Shown piece by piece: positions 1 to 61,139 of a stretch of DNA of 64,000 nt (the stretch's first letter is position 1; the number at the start of each line of letters is the position of its first letter). The notes under the pieces were generated by a model. The model was given only the letters and a program-made list of their open reading frames with translations, made no database searches and was not told the DNA's origin. The stretch is from Dehalococcoidia bacterium (GTDB lineage Bacteria; Chloroflexota; Dehalococcoidia; Lucifugimonadales; Australimonadaceae): NCBI GenBank assembly GCA_965248495.1, contig CBDFJL010000003.1, positions 924,852 through 988,851 of the forward strand, in the 5' to 3' direction. A program made the translations under genes and the position numbers.

Positions 1-934
1 CGGTGTAGACGTCGTGGGCAAAGCCCTCGCGCTCTAGCCAGGCTAGGAGCCGCCACTCCGCCGGCGCCACGTGGTTCGGCGCGCGGCCCTCGATGGGGTC
101 GATCACCTGCTCGCTCTCGGGCACGAAGTTGATGAGCTCGGGCCGGTCCAGCGATTGGCGCCGGGGGTGCTCCGTGGCGACGTACGCGGCGGACGTGCCG
201 TCGGTGTAGCGCACCAGCTCGCTGCGGGCGTAGACGGTGGGCGTCGGCGGTAGCCCCTGAGGGTGGATGTAGTTTGAGCGCCCGCCGAAGTTGTTGTACG
301 CCGTCCAGTTCAGGTCGGAGCAGACGACGGCGACCTTCGCGGTGGGCTTGGCTGGGGCGACCACCCAGGGGAAGGAGAAGAAGGCGCCCGACTCGCCCTT
401 GGCGTGGAAGTAGTAGAGGCCGGAGCGCTCCGGCGCGCCGACGTACTGCTTGTGGTCGGGACTCGTGTAGCCGACCGTGTTCCACCGGATGCCCGTCTGG
501 GTGTAGTCCCCGTCGGGGCTCACCTGGACGGTCGCGCGAGGTCCGTGCTCGTCGTACCAGCCGATTGGCCGCACGAGCGTCTTGTCGATGCCGTAACGCC
601 ACAGCGTGAGCTTGTACGCCTCGGGCGAGTGGACGCGGAACTCGGCGAGCTCACCGGAGCGCACGGCCTTGGGCCACGCGTAACCCAGCAGGCGCTCGGG
701 CAGCAGGCGGAACTGGTATGGCTCAGCGACGGGTAGCGCCAGGCGAACGCGCTTCGACCCGAAGCCTGGCCTGGACAGCACGACGTCGTAGTCGCCCGCG
801 GGCAGGTCCGCGTGCAATGAGCCGCTGGCCCGCGAGCGCGCCTCTGAGGAGTTGCCCCGGGCATCGAGGAACTCGACCTGGGTGTCGGCGAGGGCCAGGT
901 AGCGCTCGTCGCTCACGTAACCGATCAGCGGCAT
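1..934 (-). CDS. Conserved hypothetical protein, 3' end runs off the window; possibly N,N-dimethylformamidase large-subunit-like
   Basis: Absent from the ORF track because it has no in-window stop. My translation of the minus strand from ATG 934-932 gives MPLIGYVSDERYLALADTQVEF...VAVVCSDLNWTAYNNFGGRSNYIHP...EWRLLAWLEREGFAHDVYT, with no stop down to position 1 and G/C-rich third positions. AGGAG lies just upstream. The family guess rests on the TAYNNFGG-type motif only. Confidence 0.6.
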   Translation of the reverse strand, partial: MPLIGYVSDERYLALADTQVEFLDARGNSSEARSRASGSLHADLPAGDYDVVLSRPGFGSKRVRLALPVAEPYQFRLLPERLLGYAWPKAVRSGELAEFRVHSPEAYKLTLWRYGIDKTLVRPIGWYDEHGPRATVQVSPDGDYTQTGIRWNTVGYTSPDHKQYVGAPERSGLYYFHAKGESGAFFSFPWVVAPAKPTAKVAVVCSDLNWTAYNNFGGRSNYIHPQGLPPTPTVYARSELVRYTDGTSAAYVATEHPRRQSLDRPELINFVPESEQVIDPIEGRAPNHVAPAEWRLLAWLEREGFAHDVYT

Positions 935-27227: not shown

Positions 27228-27257
27228 TTGACACGACAGAGACGAGATTGGTAAACT
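27228..27257 (+). promoter_or_regulatory. Sigma-70-type promoter of the ilv-leu operon
   Basis: TTGACA (27228-27233), an 18-nt spacer, then TGgTAAACT (extended -10; hexamer at 27252-27257). Confidence 0.55.
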
Positions 27258-27261
27258 TTCG

Positions 27262-27530
27262 GCGCACTTTCAATAAGTTTCCGCAACGAAGGGAAGTAGT
27301 AGGGGACTCCTCGTCCAAGCGAGCCGGCGGTTGGTGAAAGGCCGGTGGCGTCAGGGCCCCGAACTCGTCCCGGAGCGGCCGACCTGAACGTTTTGAGCGG
27401 CTCAAAGCGTGTAGGGTAGGCGGAGCGCGCCGATACCGCGCCTAACGAAGCGCCTCCCAGCGGGCTGGGGGGAACGAGGGTGGTACCGCGGGCCTGGCCC
27501 GTCCCTTAATTGAGGGGCGGGTTTTTTTGT
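27262..27530 (+). promoter_or_regulatory. T-box leader, probable Leu (CUC) specifier, with intrinsic terminator
   Basis: T-box sequence AACGAGGGTGGTACCGCGG at 27473-27491. Stem I elements include the AGCGA bulge, a GGTGAAAG distal loop, and a specifier loop with AGUAGUA opposite GAA-CUC-G (CUC at 27364-27366). The terminator cccgtccc-ttaattga-ggggcggg plus T7 lies at 27497-27528. Confidence 0.8.
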
Positions 27531-27571: not shown

Positions 27572-29278
27572 ATGCGGCTAACCGGTGGGCAGATGGTATG
27601 CGAGGCGTTGGTCCGCGAAGGCGTGGACCTCGTGTTCGGCCTGCCCGGCGGCGCTATCCTGCCGCTCTATCAGACGCTGCCAGAGTATCCGCAGATACGG
27701 CACGTCTTGGTTCGCCACGAGCAGAATGCGGGCCACGCGGCGGACGGCTACGCTCGGGCCACCGGCAAGGTCGGCGTCTGCATCGCAACGTCGGGGCCCG
27801 GCGCCACCAACCTCGTGACCCCGCTGGCCACGGCCATGATGGACTCCGTCCCGGTCGTCGCCATCACTGGGCAGGTGCCCCGCGCGGCCATCGGCAGGGA
27901 TGCGTTCCAAGAGGTCGATACCACCGGCATCACGTTGCCCATCACCAAGCACAACTACCTGGTCATGCACGCGTCCGAGTTGCCGCAAGTGCTCAAGGAG
28001 GCGTTCCACATCGCGCGAACGGGGCGGCCCGGGCCGGTGCTCATCGACATCCCCCGCGACGTGCAGGCCGAGCGCGCTGAGTTCGACTACCCGGAGAACG
28101 CCGACATGCGCTCCTACCGGCCGACGCTCGAAGGGCATGCGCAGATGATCAAGCGCGCGGCGCGGCTCATCCGCGAGTCGCAGCGCCCGCTCATTCTTGC
28201 CGGCCACGGCGTCCTGATTTCCGGTGCGTCCGCCGAGCTTCGCGAGCTCGCCGAGAAGGCGCAGGTGCCGGTCATCACAACGCTGCTCGGCATCAGCGCG
28301 TTCGACGAGGGCCACGTGCTCTCGATGGGCATGCCCGGCATGCACGGGATGGCCTATACCAATTGGGCCATCGAGCGCTCCGATCTGCTGATCGCGATCG
28401 GCATGCGATTCGACGACCGGGTCACCGGGCGCATCAGCACCTTTGCGCCCAACGCGAAGGTGGTTCACATAGATGTGGACCCCGCCGAGGTCGGCAAGAA
28501 CGTGCGCGTGACCGTGCCCATCGTCGGGGACGCGAAACGTGTGCTGCATGTGCTCGTCCGCGAGACGGAGCCCGCGACACACCCCGCCTGGCTGCACGAG
28601 ATCGACGAGCTGCGCACCGAGCATCCGTCGGACCGGCTCCGCGAGACCGATAAGCTGTTGCCCCAGCACGTCGTCCGCGAGCTTTCTGACGTCACGCGGG
28701 GCAATGCCATCGTCGTCACCGGCGTGGGCCAGCACCAGATGTGGGCTGCGCAGCACTTCCGCTTCCGCGAGCCCAACAGCTGGCTGACGTCCGGCGGGCT
28801 CGGGACCATGGGTTACGAGGTTCCCGGCGCTATGGGCGCGGCCATGGGCCGACCAGACAAGGTGGTCTGGAGCATCGCCGGTGACGGCGGTTTTCAGATG
28901 ACCATGTCGGAGCTGGCGACGATCGTGGAGAACAAGGTGCCGGTGAAGTTCGTCATCCTGAACAACAACAACCTGGGGCTTGTAAGACAGCTGCAGGATC
29001 TCTTCCACGATGGCTCGCGCGTCGCGTCCGGGTACACGGGAAACCCCGACTTCGTGAAGCTGGCCGAGGCCTACGGTATCTGGAGCACTCGCGTCACCGA
29101 ACGCTCGCAGGTGCGGGACGCCATAGAAGCGGCGATGGCCCACGACGGACCCGCGCTGATCGACTTTAAGGTGGAGCCGGATGAGAACGTCTACCCACAC
29201 GTGCCCGCCGGCGAAAGCGTGGCCGAGATGATCGAGGGGCAGCCGCTGCCCGATGGGGAGGGCGCATGGCAACGATAG
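27572..29278 (+). CDS. ilvB: Acetolactate synthase large subunit
   Basis: ThDP-enzyme motifs are present (GGLGTMGYEVPGAMGA...GDGGFQM...NN), with full-length AHAS-like sequence. Confidence 0.95.
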   Translation: MRLTGGQMVCEALVREGVDLVFGLPGGAILPLYQTLPEYPQIRHVLVRHEQNAGHAADGYARATGKVGVCIATSGPGATNLVTPLATAMMDSVPVVAITGQVPRAAIGRDAFQEVDTTGITLPITKHNYLVMHASELPQVLKEAFHIARTGRPGPVLIDIPRDVQAERAEFDYPENADMRSYRPTLEGHAQMIKRAARLIRESQRPLILAGHGVLISGASAELRELAEKAQVPVITTLLGISAFDEGHVLSMGMPGMHGMAYTNWAIERSDLLIAIGMRFDDRVTGRISTFAPNAKVVHIDVDPAEVGKNVRVTVPIVGDAKRVLHVLVRETEPATHPAWLHEIDELRTEHPSDRLRETDKLLPQHVVRELSDVTRGNAIVVTGVGQHQMWAAQHFRFREPNSWLTSGGLGTMGYEVPGAMGAAMGRPDKVVWSIAGDGGFQMTMSELATIVENKVPVKFVILNNNNLGLVRQLQDLFHDGSRVASGYTGNPDFVKLAEAYGIWSTRVTERSQVRDAIEAAMAHDGPALIDFKVEPDENVYPHVPAGESVAEMIEGQPLPDGEGAWQR

Positions 29279-29838
29279 AAGCCGCACCCGAGACACACAC
29301 CATCACAGCGCTGGTGAATGACCGGCCGGGCGTGCTCACCCGCGTGTCGGGCCTGTTCCGCCGCCGCGGATTCAACATCTCGAGCCTGGCCGTCGGCCAC
29401 AGCGAGGTGCCGAACCTGTCCCGCATGACATTTAATGTCGAGGGCGACGACTACGTCGTGGAGCAGGTGACAAAACAGCTCTACAAGCTCATCGACGTCG
29501 TGCGGGTAAACGACATCTCCTCCGAGAGCATCGTCGGCCGCGAGCTCGCGCTCATCAAGGTCAAGGCGACCGCTCAGACACGGGCCGAGATCATCGAGAT
29601 AGTCGACATTTTCAGAGCGAATATCGTCGACGTCGGTCCCGAGTCCCTGATCATCGAGACGACGGGCGACGAGGAAAAGGTCGACGCGCTATTGCAGCTG
29701 CTCAAGCCCTTTGGCATCCGCGAGATCATGCGCACGGGGCGCGTCGCGATGGCGCGTGGCGCGCCGGCCACGGGAAGCCGTCGCCCGATGGCGCAGCATA
29801 CGGACCAAAGCGCACCGGATACCGAGGTGGTGGAGTAA
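29266..29838 (+). CDS. ilvN: Acetolactate synthase small (regulatory) subunit
   Basis: ACT domain HTITALVNDRPGVLTRVSGLFRRRGFNISSLAVG. It overlaps the ilvB end. Confidence 0.9.
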   Translation: MATIEAAPETHTITALVNDRPGVLTRVSGLFRRRGFNISSLAVGHSEVPNLSRMTFNVEGDDYVVEQVTKQLYKLIDVVRVNDISSESIVGRELALIKVKATAQTRAEIIEIVDIFRANIVDVGPESLIIETTGDEEKVDALLQLLKPFGIREIMRTGRVAMARGAPATGSRRPMAQHTDQSAPDTEVVE

Positions 29839-29907
29839 TGGCGGCCGTAGCACCGTCCGGGCGCGGGCCAACACTCCAGCGCCCTTGATCGCATTGGGGA
29901 GGCATCG

Positions 29908-30903
29908 ATGGCAATCGTCTACTACGAGAAGGACGCCGACATGGGTCGGCTCCACGGCAAGCGCATGGGGATCATGGGTTACGGAAGCCAGGGCCACGCG
30001 CATGCGCTGAACCTGCACGACAATGGCGTCGACGTCGTCGTGGGCCTGTACGAGGGCTCCTCGAGCAGATCGAAAGCGGAGGCCGCGGGCCTAACCGTCG
30101 GTTTGCCGGAGGAGGTGACGAAGGCCGCCGACGTCATCATGGTGCTGGTGCCGGACCACGTGCAGCGCGGGCTCTACGAGAGCGCCATCGAGCCGCACCT
30201 CGATGGGACGAAAACGCTGATGTTCGCTCACGGGTTCAATATCCACTTCGGGGAGATCGTCCCGCCGCCCAACACCGATGTGTCGATGATTGCACCGAAG
30301 GCGCCGGGCCATCGGATGCGCGAGGTCTTCGTCGGCGGGTCCGGCGTGCCGGCGCTCGTCGCCGTCCACCAGGACGCGTCTGGCCAGGCGCTGCCCAATG
30401 CTCTGGCGTACGGCGCGGCCGTCGGCAGCATGCGCGCAGGCATTGTCGCGACGACGTTCAAGGAGGAGACGGAGACGGACCTGTTCGGTGAGCAGTCCGT
30501 CCTATGCGGCGGCACCTCGGCCCTGGTCAAGATGGGCTTCGAGACGCTGGTGGAGGCCGGGTACCAACCGGAGATCGCCTATTTCGAGGTCCTGCACGAG
30601 CTCAAGCTCATCGTGGACCTCATGTACGAGGGCGGGCTGAAGTACATGCGCTATTCGGTGAGTGAGACCGCGGAGTATGGCGACTACTCGCGGGGCTCGC
30701 GGATCGTGGACGAGCACACTCGCGAGAGCATGCGTCAGGTGCTCAAGGAGATACAGGACGGCACCTTCGCCCGGGAGTGGATAGCGGAGAACCACGAGGG
30801 AGGACACAAGTTCAGACAGATGCGCGAGCAGGACGCCAACCACCAGATCGAAGAGGTCGGTGCTCAGCTACGAGAGATGATGAGCTTCCTGCAACAGAAG
30901 TAA
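29908..30903 (+). CDS. ilvC: Ketol-acid reductoisomerase
   Basis: [19 protein letters not shown]...[11 protein letters not shown]. Confidence 0.95.
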
Positions 30904-56717: not shown

Positions 56718-57839
56718 CTAGGGGGTCGCTTCCGCCCCGCCGTACAACCCGGTGTCGGGGTGGAAGTCGGTCCACGCGAACCAGAAGGACACGAACGAGG
56801 CCAACTGCGTCAGGCGGGTCCCCGCGAGCTCGCCGTCCTTGGCGACCCCGCTGACGCGCGTCCACGTCGAGCCGGTCTGAGTATCGCGCATCTCCAGGTT
56901 ACCGACGGGAGTGAAGCTCAACACCCGCCCATCGGCCAATGTGCGGTCGAACACGGCCTGCGTGCCCGCCTGTGGATCGAGGGTGACGACGATTTCTCGG
57001 CCGGAGTAGCTGTCGTTCACGATCTGCTCTTCCGCCAGCGCGCGGAACCCGTACGCCCGGGCCTGGTCGCCCCAGTCGAGCCCAACCACAAGCGTCTTCG
57101 TCGGCAGCCGGTCGTCGGGTACCGCTTCGCCGAGGATGCCGGCTGAGCCGCTTTGATAGTAACTCCGGTAGGGGTCGTCCCCGCTGCCGCGGCCGAAGCG
57201 CCGGTCCAGCAGCTTGGTGTCCGGGTGCCGTTCCACCCAAGCTGCCCACGTGGTCAGCGGGGCGGGGATCAGTTCGAGGCGCTCCCCTGCCAGCTCGCCC
57301 TCGACGGCCTCCTGGAGGAATTGACTCCAGAAGGTGTCGGTCTGGTGGTCGTACATGACGACGGCGTTGCGGATCAGCTTGCCGGATACGCCGAAGGTGA
57401 GCTCCCTCCCGGCGACCTCGCGGGCAAAGACCATGCCCGTAAAGCAGAGCGGTCACCACGTGACCATGACTGGTCTCCCGCCAACCGTATCGTTGACGAC
57501 TTCGTGACTGCTCAGGTGCGCTGTGGCGTAGGCCCGGTGGTCGCCGTTGATGGACAGCCCGATGACGAGCTCTTGCGGCAGCATCTGGGACGCCGCTACC
57601 GCGCCGTCGACGAACATCGGGTCAAGGATCGCTGGGATCGCGTCCTTCCCGAGAACCGTCCGGATCTCGAACTCGCGTAATGGCGTGGACGCGTCGGCGC
57701 CGGCACTGGCCGCGGGGAGGGCCACGGTGGTACTGCGGTTGAGCAGCCGCCAAACGGGGCTGCCGGGAATCACGGCGAGGAATGCCAATACGACGACGCC
57801 CATGACTACGGTCGCTGCGATGGTGGTGCGGCTCAGCAA
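56718..57839 (-). CDS. DUF3179 family membrane-anchored protein, predicted selenoprotein (UPLC), Sec codon at complement(57453..57455)
   Basis: Track ORFs 57453..57839 and 56718..57434 are in the same frame. Read-through gives ...HLSSHEVVNDTVGGRPVMVTW-U-PLCFTGMVFAREVAGRELTFGVSGKLIRNAVVMYDHQTDTFWSQ.... N-terminal TM anchor; TTG start. Confidence 0.75.
57421..57439 (-). promoter_or_regulatory. Candidate SECIS-like hairpin for DUF3179 copy 2
   Basis: On the minus strand, CGGGCA-UGGUCUU-UGCCCG forms a 6-bp stem with a 7-nt loop containing GGUC. It begins 13 nt after the UGA. Confidence 0.5.
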
Positions 57840-58038: not shown

Positions 58039-59826
58039 CTAGACCGCGCACTCACCCTCGCCGCGCTCCAGCTTGTAGAGCACGGTCTTGCCCCAGTCCA
58101 TGTAGTAGTCCAGCGTCTCTTTGCCCAGTGGACCGATCTCGCGGAACTCCGAGAGGATGGCCTCAAAAGCGTCATTGCCCGTGCGGTCGACGAAGTCGTT
58201 GAACTCCTCACCATCTCGTCGCTGGTCGCGGTAGTAATCGAGGAGCCGCCGAATGGCACTCGGGACGTGTTTGGAAGGCACCTTGGCCTTGACTCGCTGG
58301 CCGTATTTGAGGCCGCCCCGCTCGTAGGCGCCGCCAAGGTAGACCTCGAAAGCGGGGATCTGGTTGCCCCCGGGCCCTTTGATGGAGGCTCCCTGGAAGC
58401 CGATGTTGGCCAGATGGTGCCTGCCACAGCCGTTGGGGCAGCCGGACGCCTTGATGTGCAGCTTCTTGATGGCCGGGTCTTCCAACAGGTCGTCCCAGTC
58501 CATCAGCGCATCCGTGACCGCCCGGTTCAGGCCCATGGAGGACGTGATGCCGAGCTTGCAGCTATCCGTGCCGGGGCAAGACGTCATGTCGGTGATCGAG
58601 TAGACCTCGGCCTCCGCCAGTCCGATGGCGCCAAGCTCGCGCCATACGGCGTAGAGAGCCCCATCGGGAATCCAGCGCAGCGCCAGGTTCTGCTCGGCGC
58701 TGAGCCCGAAGCTGGCCGAGCCGTGGTCGCGGGTGATCTGGGCGATGGCCCGGAACTGGTCCGCCGTCAGGTCCCCTCGCGGAACCTTCACGTACACCGC
58801 GTTGTAGCCCTCCTGGATTTGCGCGACGACGTTGGTCTTCCGCCAGAGAAGAAACTCCTTGTCCCCGGAGCCCTCCCCGGTGTCCGCCAGGGGAGCCGGA
58901 GGCGTCTCTTGAGCATTTGCCATCAGCGGGCTGGGGTCGAAGCTCCCCTCGTTGGCCCACGGCTTCTCCAGCTCGTCCTCGACCATCTGCCTGACGGCGT
59001 CGATGCCACGCCGGTGAATGAGTACTTTGATCCGCGCCATCATCTTGTTCTGACGCAGCTCGTCGGCGGCATCGAACACCCGGAGGATCGCCTCGGTAAC
59101 CCGCAGGTAGTCCTCGACCGCGACGAACTCGTAGAGCGTTTCGGCGTTCTTGGCGAGGATCGAGGTGCCTCCGCCGACGACCATCTTGAAGCCCCTGTGT
59201 TCGACCCCGTCAATCTCTCGCACGCGCGCCACGAAGCCGAGATCGTGCATCCCCACGATGGCAGGGTCGTGCTCGCCGGAGGAGAAGGCCGTCTTGAACT
59301 TACGCGGCATCGATTGGGCGATGGGGTGCCGCACGAACTTGCGGACGTACGCCACAAGGTAGGGCGTGATGTCAAAGGCCTGCTCCGGGTCGATGCCCAT
59401 CATCGGGTCAGCGTTCACGTTGCGGACCGTGTTCCCGCACGCCTCGCGGGTGGAGAGCCCGGACTCGCCGAGGATGCGCATCACGTTGGGAGCGTCCTCC
59501 AGCGCCACGTGGTGGTACTGGATGTTCTCCCGGGTCGTGATATGCCCCATCTTGAGGGGAGCAAGCTCGTCCGCAATGACCGCCAGCGCGTCCATCTGGT
59601 CTGCCGTTCCCAGCCCTCCGGGCAGCTTGACGCGCACCATTTGCGCATCGGGCTGGCGCTGTCCATAGATGCCCCGCCGCAGACGCCACGGGGTGAACTG
59701 CTTGTCGTCGATCTCACCCGCCCGGAAGCGCTTGGCCTCGACCTCGAACTCCTCGGCCTCGACCGCCAGGTACGGGATGACGCCCTTGGTGTTGTCGACT
59801 AGGCCGGCGTTGCGTGCAATGGCCAT
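58039..59826 (-). CDS. sir: Sulfite/nitrite reductase hemoprotein (ferredoxin-dependent type)
   Basis: Two NIR/SIR repeats are present. The siroheme-[4Fe-4S] Cys cluster reads TSCPGTDSCKLG...ASGCPNGCGRHH. GGAGGG RBS precedes ATG 59826. Confidence 0.9.
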   Translation of the reverse strand: MAIARNAGLVDNTKGVIPYLAVEAEEFEVEAKRFRAGEIDDKQFTPWRLRRGIYGQRQPDAQMVRVKLPGGLGTADQMDALAVIADELAPLKMGHITTRENIQYHHVALEDAPNVMRILGESGLSTREACGNTVRNVNADPMMGIDPEQAFDITPYLVAYVRKFVRHPIAQSMPRKFKTAFSSGEHDPAIVGMHDLGFVARVREIDGVEHRGFKMVVGGGTSILAKNAETLYEFVAVEDYLRVTEAILRVFDAADELRQNKMMARIKVLIHRRGIDAVRQMVEDELEKPWANEGSFDPSPLMANAQETPPAPLADTGEGSGDKEFLLWRKTNVVAQIQEGYNAVYVKVPRGDLTADQFRAIAQITRDHGSASFGLSAEQNLALRWIPDGALYAVWRELGAIGLAEAEVYSITDMTSCPGTDSCKLGITSSMGLNRAVTDALMDWDDLLEDPAIKKLHIKASGCPNGCGRHHLANIGFQGASIKGPGGNQIPAFEVYLGGAYERGGLKYGQRVKAKVPSKHVPSAIRRLLDYYRDQRRDGEEFNDFVDRTGNDAFEAILSEFREIGPLGKETLDYYMDWGKTVLYKLERGEGECAV

Positions 59827-59851
59827 GGTGGACCCTCCGGTCTTGAACAAT

Positions 59852-59900
59852 AAAAAAGCTGCACCCCGGTCCTTTGGCTTCGTAGCCAGCGGGGCGCAGC
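59852..59900 (-). terminator. Leader terminator (attenuator) about 25 nt upstream of the sir start codon
   Basis: On the minus strand, GCUGCGCCCCG...(inner UGGC/GCCA)...CGGGGUGCAGC is followed by UUUUUUAUUGUU. Confidence 0.6.
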
Positions 59901-59923
59901 GCCTAGTGGTTCAGGCGTGCACC

Positions 59924-59959
59924 CTACAGGGGACAGGGACAGCAGCTCAAGAGCGCCAT
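59924..59959 (-). CDS. Cys-rich leader peptide MALLSCCPCPL (11 codons)
   Basis: Reads atg gcg ctc ttg agc TGC TGT ccc TGT ccc ctg tag. The ATG lies 9 nt after the predicted -10 hexamer, so the transcript is essentially leaderless. The stop codon abuts the antiterminator arm GGGUGCA. Confidence 0.55.
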   Translation of the reverse strand: MALLSCCPCPL

Positions 59960-59967
59960 ACAGGGCC

Positions 59968-59997
59968 AAGCTAACACCCGTCGGAGCGGATTGTCAA
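59968..59997 (-). promoter_or_regulatory. Predicted sir promoter
   Basis: On the minus strand, TTGACA (59997-59992), an 18-nt spacer, then TGtTAGCTT (hexamer 59973-59968). Confidence 0.5.
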
Positions 59998-60018
59998 CGC
60001 GCGAGGTCGACAATCCGC
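59986..60018. promoter_or_regulatory. 10-bp perfect inverted repeat GCGGATTGTC-N13-GACAATCCGC overlapping the sir -35
   Basis: The arms lie at 59986-59995 and 60009-60018, in the divergent region between sir and the 60082 gene. Confidence 0.45.
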
Positions 60019-60081
60019 CAGGCCACGGCCTGGGGCACGGGGCTCCGGTGATAGACTGGCGCAGCCCGGATTGGGGGTGTC

Positions 60082-60438
60082 GTGCGGCAGGTCGCCTTCC
60101 TCGTTGGCTTGTTCGGTGCGGCGCTCGCGCTGTTGGGCTCGCTGGTGGCCATATTCGTTGGCGCACTCGGCCTGGTCACCGGCGGGGGGTTCGATGCGGG
60201 GGACCAGGCGTTATTCGGGTTGCTGGCCGTCGGTGCGGCATTGGTTGGCGGCCTCGGCGCGGTCGTCTCGCTCTTTCGGCCTCGGGCCGGTGCGCTGATG
60301 CTTCTGGGCTCGGCGGTGGCCGGGCTCCTCGCGATCCCGACGTACTACATCTTCGGAGCGGTGCTGCTGTTGGTCGGGGCCTTCTTCGCGTACCGCGCAG
60401 ACAGGGAGGCGGGCCGCAGTATCATGGGCGAGCGATGA
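60082..60438 (+). CDS. Small integral membrane protein (four TM, Gly/Ala/Leu-rich)
   Basis: MRQVAFLVGLFGAALALLGSLVAIFVGALGLV.... ATGA overlap with the following chdC-like gene. Confidence 0.6.
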   Translation: MRQVAFLVGLFGAALALLGSLVAIFVGALGLVTGGGFDAGDQALFGLLAVGAALVGGLGAVVSLFRPRAGALMLLGSAVAGLLAIPTYYIFGAVLLLVGAFFAYRADREAGRSIMGER

Positions 60439-61139
60439 CCACCGACGTGACCCCGCAGATCGTGCGCTACGCTTTCTACAAGGCTGACCCGGCCTGGCGC
60501 CGGCTACCGGAGGACGCCCGCTCGCGCAGCAAACGGGAGTTTGCCAGCGTCCTGGCCGAGCTCGAGTCACAATTGACGCTGCGCACCTACAGCCTGATGG
60601 GGATGCGCGCCGACGCCGAGCTGATGGTCTGGTCCGTCAGTGCCGACCTCGAGGGCCAGCAGGTCCTGGCCACCAGCTTGGCCCGCACCGAGCTTGGCGC
60701 CTACTTGGACCTGACCCACTCCTTCCTGGCCATGACGCGGCGCTCCAGGTACATCGACGACCATGGGCACGATGGGCACGAAGGGCCGGAGAGCCGCACG
60801 CGCATAAAGCCCATGGACCGGCCGTACCTGTTCGTCTACCCGTTCGTGAAGACCCACGACTGGTACCAGCTCTCCGGCGAGGAGCGCCAGCGGATGATGG
60901 AGGCGCACTTCACCATCGGCCACCTCTACCCCGAGGTGAAGATTCACACCTCCTACTCGTACGGGCTGGACGACCAAGAGTTCGTGCTCGGGTTCGAGAC
61001 GTCCGAGCCGCAGCGCTTTCTGGAGCTGGTGATGGAGCTGCGGCACGCTGAGCAGCGCCCGTACACCGAGCGGGACGTGCCCATCTTCACCTGCCTGCTG
61101 AAGACCGTCGAGGAGGCGCTCGACGACCTGGGGGGCTGA
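60435..61139 (+). CDS. chdC: Chlorite dismutase family protein, probable coproheme decarboxylase (HemQ/ChdC)
   Basis: YAFYKADPAWRRLPED...YLFVYPFVKTHDWYQLSGEERQRMMEAHFTIG...YSYGLDDQEFVLGFETSEP. Confidence 0.85.
   Translation: MTTDVTPQIVRYAFYKADPAWRRLPEDARSRSKREFASVLAELESQLTLRTYSLMGMRADAELMVWSVSADLEGQQVLATSLARTELGAYLDLTHSFLAMTRRSRYIDDHGHDGHEGPESRTRIKPMDRPYLFVYPFVKTHDWYQLSGEERQRMMEAHFTIGHLYPEVKIHTSYSYGLDDQEFVLGFETSEPQRFLELVMELRHAEQRPYTERDVPIFTCLLKTVEEALDDLGG

What the first reader, a model, noticed from the sequence alone, without database searches (positions are those of the whole stretch)
59852..59959. Cysteine-rich leaderless leader peptide with terminator/antiterminator switch upstream of sulfite reductase
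All coordinates here are read on the minus strand.
- The predicted promoter is TTGACA-18-TGtTAGCTT.
- An ATG lies only 9 nt after the -10 hexamer and opens the mini-ORF MALLSCCPCPL* (TGC TGT CCC TGT, so 3 Cys in 11 codons).
- Its stop codon abuts GGGUGCA (59924-59918), which can pair with UGCGCCC (59898-59892).
- UGCGCCC is also part of the 5' arm of a strong terminator, GCUGCGCCCCG...CGGGGUGCAGC followed by U6, which ends about 25 nt before the sir start codon.
- A ribosome stalled at the Cys codons would leave GGGUGCA free, so the antiterminator forms and transcription reads through into sulfite reductase.
- A ribosome that reaches the stop codon would cover GGGUGCA, so the terminator forms.

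This is textbook ribosome-mediated attenuation, keyed here to cysteine and controlling a cysteine-biosynthesis gene. Cys-rich leaderless uORF attenuators have been described in mycobacteria, but I do not know of one for this lineage or gene.
Basis: partly seen in the sequence, partly recalled or inferred. Interest (0 to 1): 0.8.

Follow-up and report, generated by a model that had tools for sequence, protein, structure and literature searches.

The report
Cysteine-sensing leader peptide attenuator of sulfite reductase
A tiny 11-codon gene rich in cysteine codons, followed by a switchable transcription stop signal, sits in front of the sulfite reductase gene of a marine Chloroflexota bacterium; the same design recurs in dozens of relatives, so it very probably lets the cell make the enzyme only when cysteine runs short.

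Summary
On the minus strand there is TTGACA-18-TGtTAGCTT. An ATG follows 8 nt after the -10 and opens MALLSCCPCPL*. A -22.7 kcal/mol hairpin starts at the last G of the stop codon. It shares UGCGCCC with a -28.4 kcal/mol terminator that carries a U6 tract and ends 25 nt before the sir start.

The window is not actinobacterial; its closest relatives are Dehalococcoidia/SAR202 (Chloroflexota) MAGs. Among 68 distinct sir loci from genomes and metagenomes, 32 have an ATG mini-ORF with clustered Cys codons right after a -10 box. The background rate is 0.002 per 350 nt. The peptides differ, but the Cys codons, promoter spacing, terminator and stop-abutting antiterminator arm are kept. The antiterminator pairing covaries between loci (permutation p = 2e-4).

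The TSS, translation of the mini-ORF and the cysteine response remain untested.

Cys leader peptides are already known in mycobacteria, where they act on translation, and predicted for cysS in Rhodobacterales. This is a new, widespread family of a known kind in a new phylum.

The parts
59992..59997 (-). -35 hexamer TTGACA
   Evidence: Read. A perfect or 5/6 TTGACA at 17-18 nt spacing is found in 22 of 35 related leaders.
59968..59976 (-). Extended -10 TGtTAGCTT (TAnnnT type)
   Evidence: A TAnnnT box ends 5-12 nt before the sORF ATG in 34 of 35 loci, mode 8-9.
59924..59959 (-). Leader mini-ORF MALLSCCPCPL* with Cys codons 6, 7 and 9. It is leaderless or has a 5' UTR of at most 3 nt, and there is no room for a Shine-Dalgarno.
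   Evidence: Counterparts in relatives include MAHRIGCPCPM, MDKRCCPTMR, MNNICCCPQRA, MDAILTTCACTCT and MNFYSFHICCCTGR.
59933..59944 (-). Sensor codons UGC UGU (CCC) UGU, where a ribosome would stall when Cys-tRNA is scarce
   Evidence: Cys codons are the only residues conserved across leader classes, and both UGC and UGU are used.
59912..59924 (-). Region 2: 5' arm of the antiterminator, GGGUGCACGCCUG, starting at the G of the stop codon
   Evidence: In about 28 of 32 loci the partner of the terminator's 5' arm starts between -3 and +5 relative to the first base after the stop codon.
59890..59905 (-). Region 3: shared segment UAGGCGCUGCGCCCCG. It is both the 3' arm of the antiterminator (59905-59892) and the 5' arm of the terminator (59900-59890).
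59852..59868 (-). Region 4: terminator 3' arm CGGGGUGCAGC plus the U6 tract (59857-59852)
   Evidence: -28.4 kcal/mol, z = -4.85. Terminators with U tracts are found in about 30 of 33 related leaders.
59834..59838 (-). Shine-Dalgarno GGAGG of sir, not sequestered in the predicted folds
58039..59826 (-). Regulated gene: ferredoxin-type sulfite/nitrite reductase hemoprotein (sir), 595 aa
   Evidence: Pfam NIR_SIR plus NIR_SIR_ferr. The best solved relative is M. tuberculosis NirA, 1zj8. It scores below all NCBIfam equivalog cut-offs.

Best explanation
This is a ribosome-mediated (leader-peptide) transcription attenuator that senses charged tRNA-Cys and controls the assimilatory sulfite reductase gene.

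Proposed sequence of events:
1. Transcription starts at, or within about 3 nt of, the AUG of an 11-codon mini-ORF.
2. A ribosome loads on this leaderless or near-leaderless 5' end.
3. With ample Cys-tRNA the ribosome runs to the UAG stop codon. Its footprint covers the about 10-13 nt after the stop, which is GGGUGCACGC (region 2).
4. Region 3 (GCUGCGCCCCG) then stays free and pairs with region 4. The GC-rich hairpin plus U6 stops RNA polymerase 25 nt before sir.
5. When Cys-tRNA is scarce the ribosome stalls at codons 6, 7 or 9. Its front edge then reaches no further than about the stop codon.
6. Region 2 is exposed as it is made and pairs with region 3 (-22.7 kcal/mol) before region 4 exists. 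The terminator cannot form and sir is transcribed.

What is shown by sequence and comparison: the elements, their mutually exclusive pairing, and their conservation, spacing and covariation.

What is inferred: the TSS, translation of the mini-ORF, stalling, and termination efficiency.
For: In the window:
- The anatomy is as described.

Conservation of the mini-ORF:
- 32 of 68 distinct sir loci carry an ATG sORF with clustered Cys codons plus a correctly spaced -10 within 350 nt upstream. Background is 4 in 658 kb, or 0.0021 per 350 nt.
- The peptides are otherwise unrelated in sequence, and the Cys codons vary synonymously.
- Promoter-to-ATG spacing is 5-12 nt in 34 of 35 loci.

Conservation of the switch:
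- GC-rich terminators with U tracts start 23-48 nt after the stop codon.
- The stop-proximal 14 nt pair with the same locus's region 3 at -11.4 kcal/mol on average. The next 14 nt give -4.2 (Wilcoxon p = 7e-7). Own-locus pairing beats region 3 swapped between loci (permutation p = 2e-4).
- In alignment A2 both helices are about 90% paired and register-specific.

Ribosome-position simulation:
- Region 3 is sequestered 0.56-0.59 with a ribosome at the Cys codons, against 0.29 at the stop codon.
- In the window the figures are 8 of 9 and 6 of 9 bases against 3 of 9.

Supporting context:
- The same genome has a T-box with the same type of terminator in front of ilvBNC, so termination-based leaders are in use there.
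- A more distant relative has a T-box in place of the sORF upstream of sir.
- The same stop-codon-masking logic is proposed for M. tuberculosis ilvB1 (PMC13236596).
Against: - There are no experimental data for this lineage: no TSS, no ribosome profiling, no 3'-end mapping.
- With standard -10 to +1 spacing the TSS would be the G two bases before the AUG. That gives a 2-nt leader rather than a strictly leaderless mRNA.
- Leaderless genes are predicted to be uncommon in Chloroflexi, at 4-6% (PMC3160421).
- A region 1:2 (anti-antiterminator) pairing is not better than shuffled controls (mean z = -0.35). In the window's clade the untranslated leader folds into the antiterminator. The default state without translation would then be read-through, unlike the trp paradigm.
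- Some relatives have only one Cys codon (L022, L071).
- A low-GC sister clade (L002, L010-12) keeps the promoter but has no Cys sORF.
- The enzyme cannot be assigned to sulfite rather than nitrite by sequence alone.
Confidence: 0.78

Rival explanations
1. Translational attenuation of the mycobacterial Ms5788A type. The Cys mini-ORF pairs with and hides the sir ribosome-binding site. A ribosome stalled on the Cys codons frees the site, with no regulated transcription termination.
For: This is the only experimentally dissected Cys sORF mechanism (bioRxiv 10.1101/834739). In the window's full-length minimum-energy fold the Cys/Pro codons do pair with a downstream segment.
Against: - That downstream segment is the terminator's 3' arm, not the Shine-Dalgarno. 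The GGAGG at 59838-59834 is essentially unpaired.
- The long-range pairing is absent in the 91%-identical relative L001.
- A strong hairpin plus U tract is conserved in about 30 of 33 leaders. A purely translational switch would not need it.
Confidence: 0.07
2. The leader is a protein- or metabolite-binding RNA switch (a riboswitch-like terminator/antiterminator), and the mini-ORF is incidental and untranslated.
For: A terminator/antiterminator pair is also what riboswitches and T-boxes use. This genome uses a T-box for ilvBNC, and L077 uses a T-box upstream of sir.
Against: - There is no Rfam hit even at E = 10.
- Only 23-35 nt of variable sequence lie between the stop codon and the terminator, too little for an aptamer.
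- Start codon, reading frame, stop codon and in-frame Cys codons are kept while the nucleotide and peptide sequences diverge.
- The antiterminator arm is anchored to the stop codon, not to any conserved RNA motif.
Confidence: 0.05
3. The mini-ORF encodes a functional Cys-rich micropeptide (for example metal- or redox-active) co-transcribed with sir. The hairpin is a leaky constitutive terminator.
For: Some subclades conserve more than the Cys residues, such as CCCTGR and DDLFHLCTRPL.
Against: - Across clades nothing but Cys is conserved, and length varies from 10 to 22 codons.
- The conserved C-terminal codons coincide with RNA pairing partners of region 2.
- Stop-codon anchoring of the antiterminator has no role in this model.
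Confidence: 0.04
4. Chance co-occurrence of a promoter, a short ORF and a hairpin in a GC-rich intergenic region.
For: GC-rich sequence folds readily. The whole 136-nt leader is only z = -2.7 against shuffles.
Against: Enrichment over background is more than 200-fold across 68 loci. This is the only such sORF in 128 kb of window sequence. Each hairpin alone has z of about -5.
Confidence: 0.01

Closest known systems
Classical leader-peptide transcription attenuators (E. coli trp, his, leu, thr, ilv; the M. tuberculosis ilvB1 uORF attenuator, PMC13236596)
   Same: - A short ORF enriched in codons of the pathway's end-product amino acid.
- An intrinsic terminator before the structural gene.
- An antiterminator that shares a strand with the terminator.
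- A ribosome at the stop codon masks the antiterminator arm; a ribosome stalled at sensor codons exposes it.
   Different: - The sensed amino acid is cysteine.
- The sORF appears leaderless or near-leaderless, with no Shine-Dalgarno.
- In the window's clade there is no convincing region 1:2 pairing, so untranslated RNA is predicted to read through (a 3-region design).
- The lineage is Chloroflexota.
Mycobacterial polycysteine leaderless sORFs ('Cys ribulon', Canestrari et al. 2020, bioRxiv 10.1101/834739; first predicted by Seliverstov et al. 2005, PMC1262725)
   Same: - A leaderless-type sORF with consecutive Cys codons near its 3' end.
- Unannotated by gene callers.
- Located upstream of cysteine/sulfur assimilation genes, including the Ms4527 locus. 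That Ms4527 is sirA rests on my own knowledge.
- Senses Cys-tRNA through ribosome pausing.
   Different: - The dissected mycobacterial case works on translation, by Shine-Dalgarno sequestration in a very stable duplex.
- Seliverstov et al. found no terminators there.
- Here a canonical terminator/antiterminator pair with a U tract is conserved and the Shine-Dalgarno is free.
- The phylum differs, and there is no detectable sequence homology.
uORFC-8-2 motif upstream of cysS in Rhodobacterales (Brewer et al. 2021, PMC8632094)
   Same: A predicted ribosome-mediated attenuator with tandem Cys codons and a terminator stem followed by a U run.
   Different: - It controls cysteinyl-tRNA synthetase, not a biosynthetic enzyme.
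- Its Cys codons are at positions 14-15, inside the first stem.
- It is alphaproteobacterial and not leaderless.
- There is no Rfam hit to the window's leader.
T-box leaders (RF00230)
   Same: They have the same regulatory goal, reading tRNA charging to switch a terminator. One occupies the same position upstream of a sir homolog in L077, and another precedes ilvBNC in this window.
   Different: T-boxes bind uncharged tRNA directly and need no translation. The sir leader of the window has no T-box features.

Membership tests
Leader-peptide transcription attenuator (trp/his type) | [quoted passage not shown] | tested here: met
   3 Cys in 11 codons. The feature is conserved in 32-35 related loci against a background of 0.002 per 350 nt.
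Leader-peptide transcription attenuator (trp/his type) | An intrinsic terminator (GC-rich hairpin plus U tract) between the sORF and the structural gene | tested here: met
   -28.4 kcal/mol plus U6. Present in about 30 of 33 relatives.
Leader-peptide transcription attenuator (trp/his type) | An antiterminator mutually exclusive with the terminator | tested here: met
   The hairpin 59924-59892 shares 59900-59892 with the terminator. Locus-specific pairing has permutation p = 2e-4. Alignment A2 is 89% paired.
Leader-peptide transcription attenuator (trp/his type) | Geometry that makes the choice depend on ribosome position (stop-codon footprint covers the antiterminator arm, stalled footprint does not) | tested here: met
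   The arm starts between -3 and +5 relative to the first base after the stop codon in about 28 of 32 loci. Masked-fold simulation.
Leader-peptide transcription attenuator (trp/his type) | Region 1:2 pairing that gives termination when the leader is not translated | tested here: inconclusive
   The pairing is present but no better than shuffles. The simulation shows it in the CCCTGR class but not in the window's clade.
Leader-peptide transcription attenuator (trp/his type) | sORF translated; read-through rises on starvation for the amino acid | not testable with these tools
   Needs 5'/3'-end mapping, ribosome profiling or reporters.
Mycobacterial polycysteine leaderless sORF attenuators | Transcript begins at the AUG/GUG of the sORF | not testable with these tools
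   Only inferred. The -10 ends 8 nt before the ATG, and 5-12 nt in 34 of 35 relatives. The TSS could be 0-3 nt upstream of the AUG.
Mycobacterial polycysteine leaderless sORF attenuators | At least two consecutive Cys codons | tested here: met
   Codons 6-7 are UGC UGU. Many relatives have CxC instead of CC.
Mycobacterial polycysteine leaderless sORF attenuators | The sORF pairs with and sequesters the Shine-Dalgarno of the downstream gene (translational control) | tested here: not met
   The Shine-Dalgarno at 59838-59834 is unpaired in the MFE and centroid folds. A terminator is present instead.
Mycobacterial polycysteine leaderless sORF attenuators | Mycobacterium/Actinobacteria lineage, with homologous sORF families (Ms5788A and others) | tested here: not met
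   The closest genomes are Dehalococcoidia/Chloroflexota MAGs. Named SAR202 and Dehalococcoidia MAGs carry the leader.
Known Rfam cis-regulatory RNAs (T-box, riboswitches, leaders) | A match to a curated covariance model | tested here: not met
   No hit at E <= 10 in 59500-60300, both strands.

The most novel reading that the evidence does not exclude
This is an independently evolved family of cysteine-sensing, leaderless leader-peptide transcription attenuators, spread across marine Dehalococcoidia/SAR202. If so, it would be the first amino-acid attenuator family described for Chloroflexota. It would also be the first Cys attenuator with a canonical terminator/antiterminator switch on a cysteine-biosynthesis gene. 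It occurs in two logic variants, 3-region and 4-region, and includes one-Cys-codon forms.
Probability: 0.7. Interest if true: 0.6.

Novelty: new member of a known kind. Interest (0 to 1): 0.55.

Why it matters
- Ribosome-mediated attenuation is textbook for Proteobacteria and is now established in Actinobacteria. Cysteine was long the missing amino acid, and Chloroflexota had no described example.
- Here the same solution (Cys codons in a leaderless mini-ORF) appears in a distant phylum with a different output, transcription termination. That points to convergent evolution of 'ribulon'-type control.
- The element marks the regulated gene as a cysteine-pathway (sulfite) reductase where sequence alone cannot separate sulfite from nitrite.
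- It gives a handle on how abundant, largely uncultured deep-ocean SAR202 bacteria regulate sulfur assimilation.
- It offers a compact, portable cysteine-responsive switch of about 110 nt for testing.
- It shows that gene callers systematically miss these sORFs.

Tried and rejected
- **Rfam.** Scans of the leader at E <= 10 gave nothing. A whole-window Rfam pass found only a T-box and a tRNA.
- **Simple scanner.** The consensus promoter/terminator scanner missed both the promoter and the terminator, because the -10 is TAGCTT and the terminator loop exceeds 8 nt. I do not count that as evidence against them.
- **Region 1:2 pairing.** I tested for an anti-antiterminator between the sORF 3' end and the post-stop segment. 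It is present in all 30 loci but no better than shuffles, so I do not claim it for the window.
- **sORF:terminator pairing.** The long-range pairing between the sORF and the terminator's 3' arm in the window's MFE is not conserved in L001. I treat it as incidental.
- **Within-class covariation.** In alignment A2 it is weak because the sequences are too similar. The covariation argument rests on the cross-locus permutation test.
- **Other Cys sORFs.** I looked for further Cys sORFs (a 'ribulon') in the window and in the flanks of 68 loci and found none convincing.
- **Source genome.** Exact-protein look-ups to recover the source genome record failed.
- **Literature.** Searches for a Chloroflexota or sir Cys attenuator found none.
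- **Excluded case.** The MACC mini-ORF in L029/L067/L078 overlaps a better promoter and lacks a stop-proximal antiterminator arm, so it was not counted.

Full report
**1. The observation**

Reading 59700-60200 on the minus strand confirms every element at the stated coordinates.
- TTGACA is at 59997-59992, followed by an 18-nt spacer.
- The TG-extended -10 TGtTAGCTT is at 59976-59968.
- An ATG at 59959, 8 nt after the -10, opens MALLSCCPCPL*. Its Cys codons are numbers 6, 7 and 9.
- The last G of the UAG stop begins GGGUGCACGCCUG. This pairs with UAGGCGCUGCGCCC (59905-59892) at -22.7 kcal/mol (z = -5.0, 0 of 200 shuffles).
- The segment 59900-59890 is also the 5' arm of GCUGCGCCCCG...CGGGGUGCAGC plus U6. 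That hairpin folds at -28.4 kcal/mol (z = -4.85).
- The U tract ends 25 nt before the sir ATG at 59826, which has its own GGAGG.
- The gene is a 595-aa NIR_SIR/NIR_SIR_ferr hemoprotein. Its best solved relative is M. tuberculosis NirA, 1zj8. It falls below all NCBIfam equivalog cut-offs, so 'sulfite' rather than 'nitrite' is not settled by sequence.

The arrangement is rare within the window.
- Only 13 ATG mini-ORFs with clustered Cys codons exist in the whole window on both strands. Only this one has a properly spaced TAnnnT box.
- Only four TTGACN-16..18-TAnnnT motifs exist, and only this one precedes a start codon.
- Upstream, genes run the other way: a small membrane-protein ORF and a chlorite-dismutase-family gene on the plus strand. 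The hairpin therefore cannot be the terminator of an upstream gene.

**2. Lineage**

The closest genomes carrying this Sir protein are Dehalococcoidia/Chloroflexota MAGs, with L001 at 91% identity.
- More distant Sir clades that carry the same leader are named by NCBI as Chloroflexi, Dehalococcoidia or SAR202 cluster bacterium.
- I fetched two named cases and confirmed the leaders. P0329 (SAR202) has MAHTAFHQVCACRCGP. P0100 (Dehalococcoidia; GCA_024711965.1 and GCA_036339215.1) has MLNTNSIYECICTGR.
- The element is thus not actinobacterial.

**3. Comparative test**

A genome scan and a metagenome scan gave 87 sir loci, later 92.
- In 32 of 68 distinct loci, the 350 nt upstream of sir hold an ATG mini-ORF of 4-25 codons with two or more Cys spaced at most 2 apart, plus a TAnnnT box 5-12 nt upstream.
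- Elsewhere in the same loci the rate is 4 in 658 kb, or 0.0021 per 350 nt.
- The peptides are otherwise unrelated. Examples are MALLSCCPCPL, MAHRIGCPCPM, MDKRCCPTMR, MNNICCCPQRA, MDAILTTCACTCT, MTMKTMICVCTCT, MKLTARCSCTCLL and MNFYSFHICCCTGR.
- UGC and UGU interchange.
- The Sir proteins of these loci are only 45-91% identical to the window's.
- The -10 ends 5-12 nt (mode 8-9) before the ATG in 34 of 35 leaders. Of these, 22 have a perfect or near-perfect TTGACA at 17-18 nt, and the CCCTGR class uses TGCTAAAAT. There is no room for a Shine-Dalgarno.

**4. The switch**

- A GC-rich hairpin with a U tract starts 23-48 nt after the stop codon in about 30 of 33 leaders.
- I folded each leader from the stop codon to the terminator's 5' arm. 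In about 28 of 32 loci that arm is sequestered by the segment starting between -3 and +5 relative to the first base after the stop codon.
- Duplex energy between the stop-proximal 14 nt and the same locus's region 3 averages -11.4 kcal/mol. The next 14 nt give -4.2 (Wilcoxon p = 7e-7).
- Own-locus pairs beat region 3 permuted among loci (p = 2e-4). Regions 2, 3 and 4 therefore co-vary between classes: GGGGCG/CGCCCC/GGGGCG, GCAGGG/CCCUGCC/GGCAGGG and GGGUGCA/UGCGCCC/GGGGUGCA.
- In an 11-sequence alignment of one class both helices are about 90% paired and register-specific, with little internal covariation.

I then folded with ribosome footprints masked.
- Region 3 is sequestered 0.59 or 0.56 with the ribosome at the first or last Cys codon, against 0.29 at the stop codon.
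- In the window the counts are 8 of 9 and 6 of 9 bases against 3 of 9.
- The CCCTGR class behaves as a full 4-region attenuator: when untranslated, the sORF 3' end pairs with region 2, region 3 stays open and the terminator forms.
- The window's clade behaves as a 3-region design: when untranslated it forms the antiterminator.
- The region 1:2 pairing as such is not better than shuffles.

**5. Mechanism and rivals**

- Translational Shine-Dalgarno sequestration, as in Ms5788A, is unlikely. The Shine-Dalgarno is free and a terminator is conserved.
- A riboswitch is unlikely. Rfam finds nothing, the spacer is short and variable, and frame, start, stop and Cys codons are what is conserved.
- A functional micropeptide is unlikely because only Cys is shared.

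Context supports termination-based leaders in this organism. A T-box with a similar terminator precedes ilvB-ilvN-ilvC in the same window. One distant sir homolog (L077) has a T-box where the others have the sORF.

**6. Caveats**

- The TSS, translation of the sORF, stalling and termination are all inferred.
- Standard spacing would put +1 at the G two bases before the AUG.
- Leaderless genes are predicted to be rare in Chloroflexi (PMC3160421).
- Two leaders have a single Cys codon (L022, L071).
- A low-GC sister clade keeps the promoter but lacks the sORF.
- In at least a dozen loci sir is not the first gene of its operon, so no leader is expected directly upstream.

**7. What is known**

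- Cys leader peptides without terminators were predicted in Mycobacterium, P. acnes and Bifidobacterium (PMC1262725).
- Polycysteine leaderless sORFs were shown to act as cysteine-responsive, translational attenuators in M. smegmatis. Ms4527 is among the responsive loci (bioRxiv 10.1101/834739).
- A tandem-Cys uORF with a terminator is predicted upstream of cysS in Rhodobacterales (PMC8632094).
- Searches found nothing for Chloroflexota or for a terminator-type Cys attenuator on sir.

**Verdict**

This is a real, conserved feature. It is a new, widespread family of a known kind of regulator in a new phylum, with good comparative support and no experimental support yet.

Noticed in passing
window 56718-57839 (minus); TGA at 57455-57453: The DUF3179 gene downstream of sir looks split into two ORFs but is one reading frame with an in-frame TGA. 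The TGA aligns to the first Cys of the invariant VTW-C-PLC motif of full-length homologs. Dozens of homolog clusters are 232-244-aa calls starting just after this point. It is a likely selenocysteine (UPLC). DUF3179 is already listed as a UxxC selenoprotein family (PMC9312934). A GGUC-loop hairpin follows about 15 nt after the UGA, and there is no Rfam SECIS hit.
   Followed up: partly
window 27277-27509 (+), genes 27572-30903 (+): A T-box leader (RF00230, 93.1 bits) sits downstream of a TTGACA-type promoter-like motif (starting at 27228) and ends in a GGGGCGGG-U7 terminator. It precedes ilvB, ilvN and ilvC. The same genome thus uses tRNA-sensing termination for branched-chain amino acids and a leader peptide for sir. 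The specifier codon was not determined.
   Followed up: partly
L077 2190-2427: A sir homolog (56% identity) has a T-box leader (95.8 bits) in place of the Cys mini-ORF. The specifier-loop region reads GAAGUGCCC and contains UGC (Cys), but the register is not resolved.
   Followed up: partly
L022 and L071, about 100-190 nt upstream of sir: These leaders have the full architecture (TTGACA-17-TAGACT, stop-proximal G run, terminator) but only one Cys codon. They also share a conserved peptide, MRMEDDLFHLCTRPLK and MRFPDDLFHLCTRPL. They may be a one-codon sensor or a peptide-dependent arrest.
   Followed up: no
L002, L010, L011, L012 upstream of sir: A low-GC (about 39%) clade with 73% Sir identity keeps the TTGACA-17-TAGCTT promoter. 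It has no Cys mini-ORF and no clear terminator, an apparent loss of the attenuator.
   Followed up: partly
leaders of about 22 of 30 loci: A Cys codon UGU is followed by A (UGU-ACC, -ACU, -AGG or -AUG) across otherwise unrelated leader peptides. The window's clade has UGU-CCC (Cys-Pro) instead. The cause of this nucleotide-level conservation is unexplained.
   Followed up: no
window 60082-60438 (+) and 60436-61139 (+): Divergent from sir are a 118-aa hydrophobic ORF with no family match and a chlorite-dismutase-family (HemQ-like) gene. Its ATG overlaps the upstream stop as ATGA.
   Followed up: no
L090-L092 (NCBI assemblies GCA_024711965.1, GCA_036339215.1): Gene calls on record do not include the Cys mini-ORF and instead call short antisense ORFs in the leader region. 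The element is systematically unannotated.
   Followed up: no
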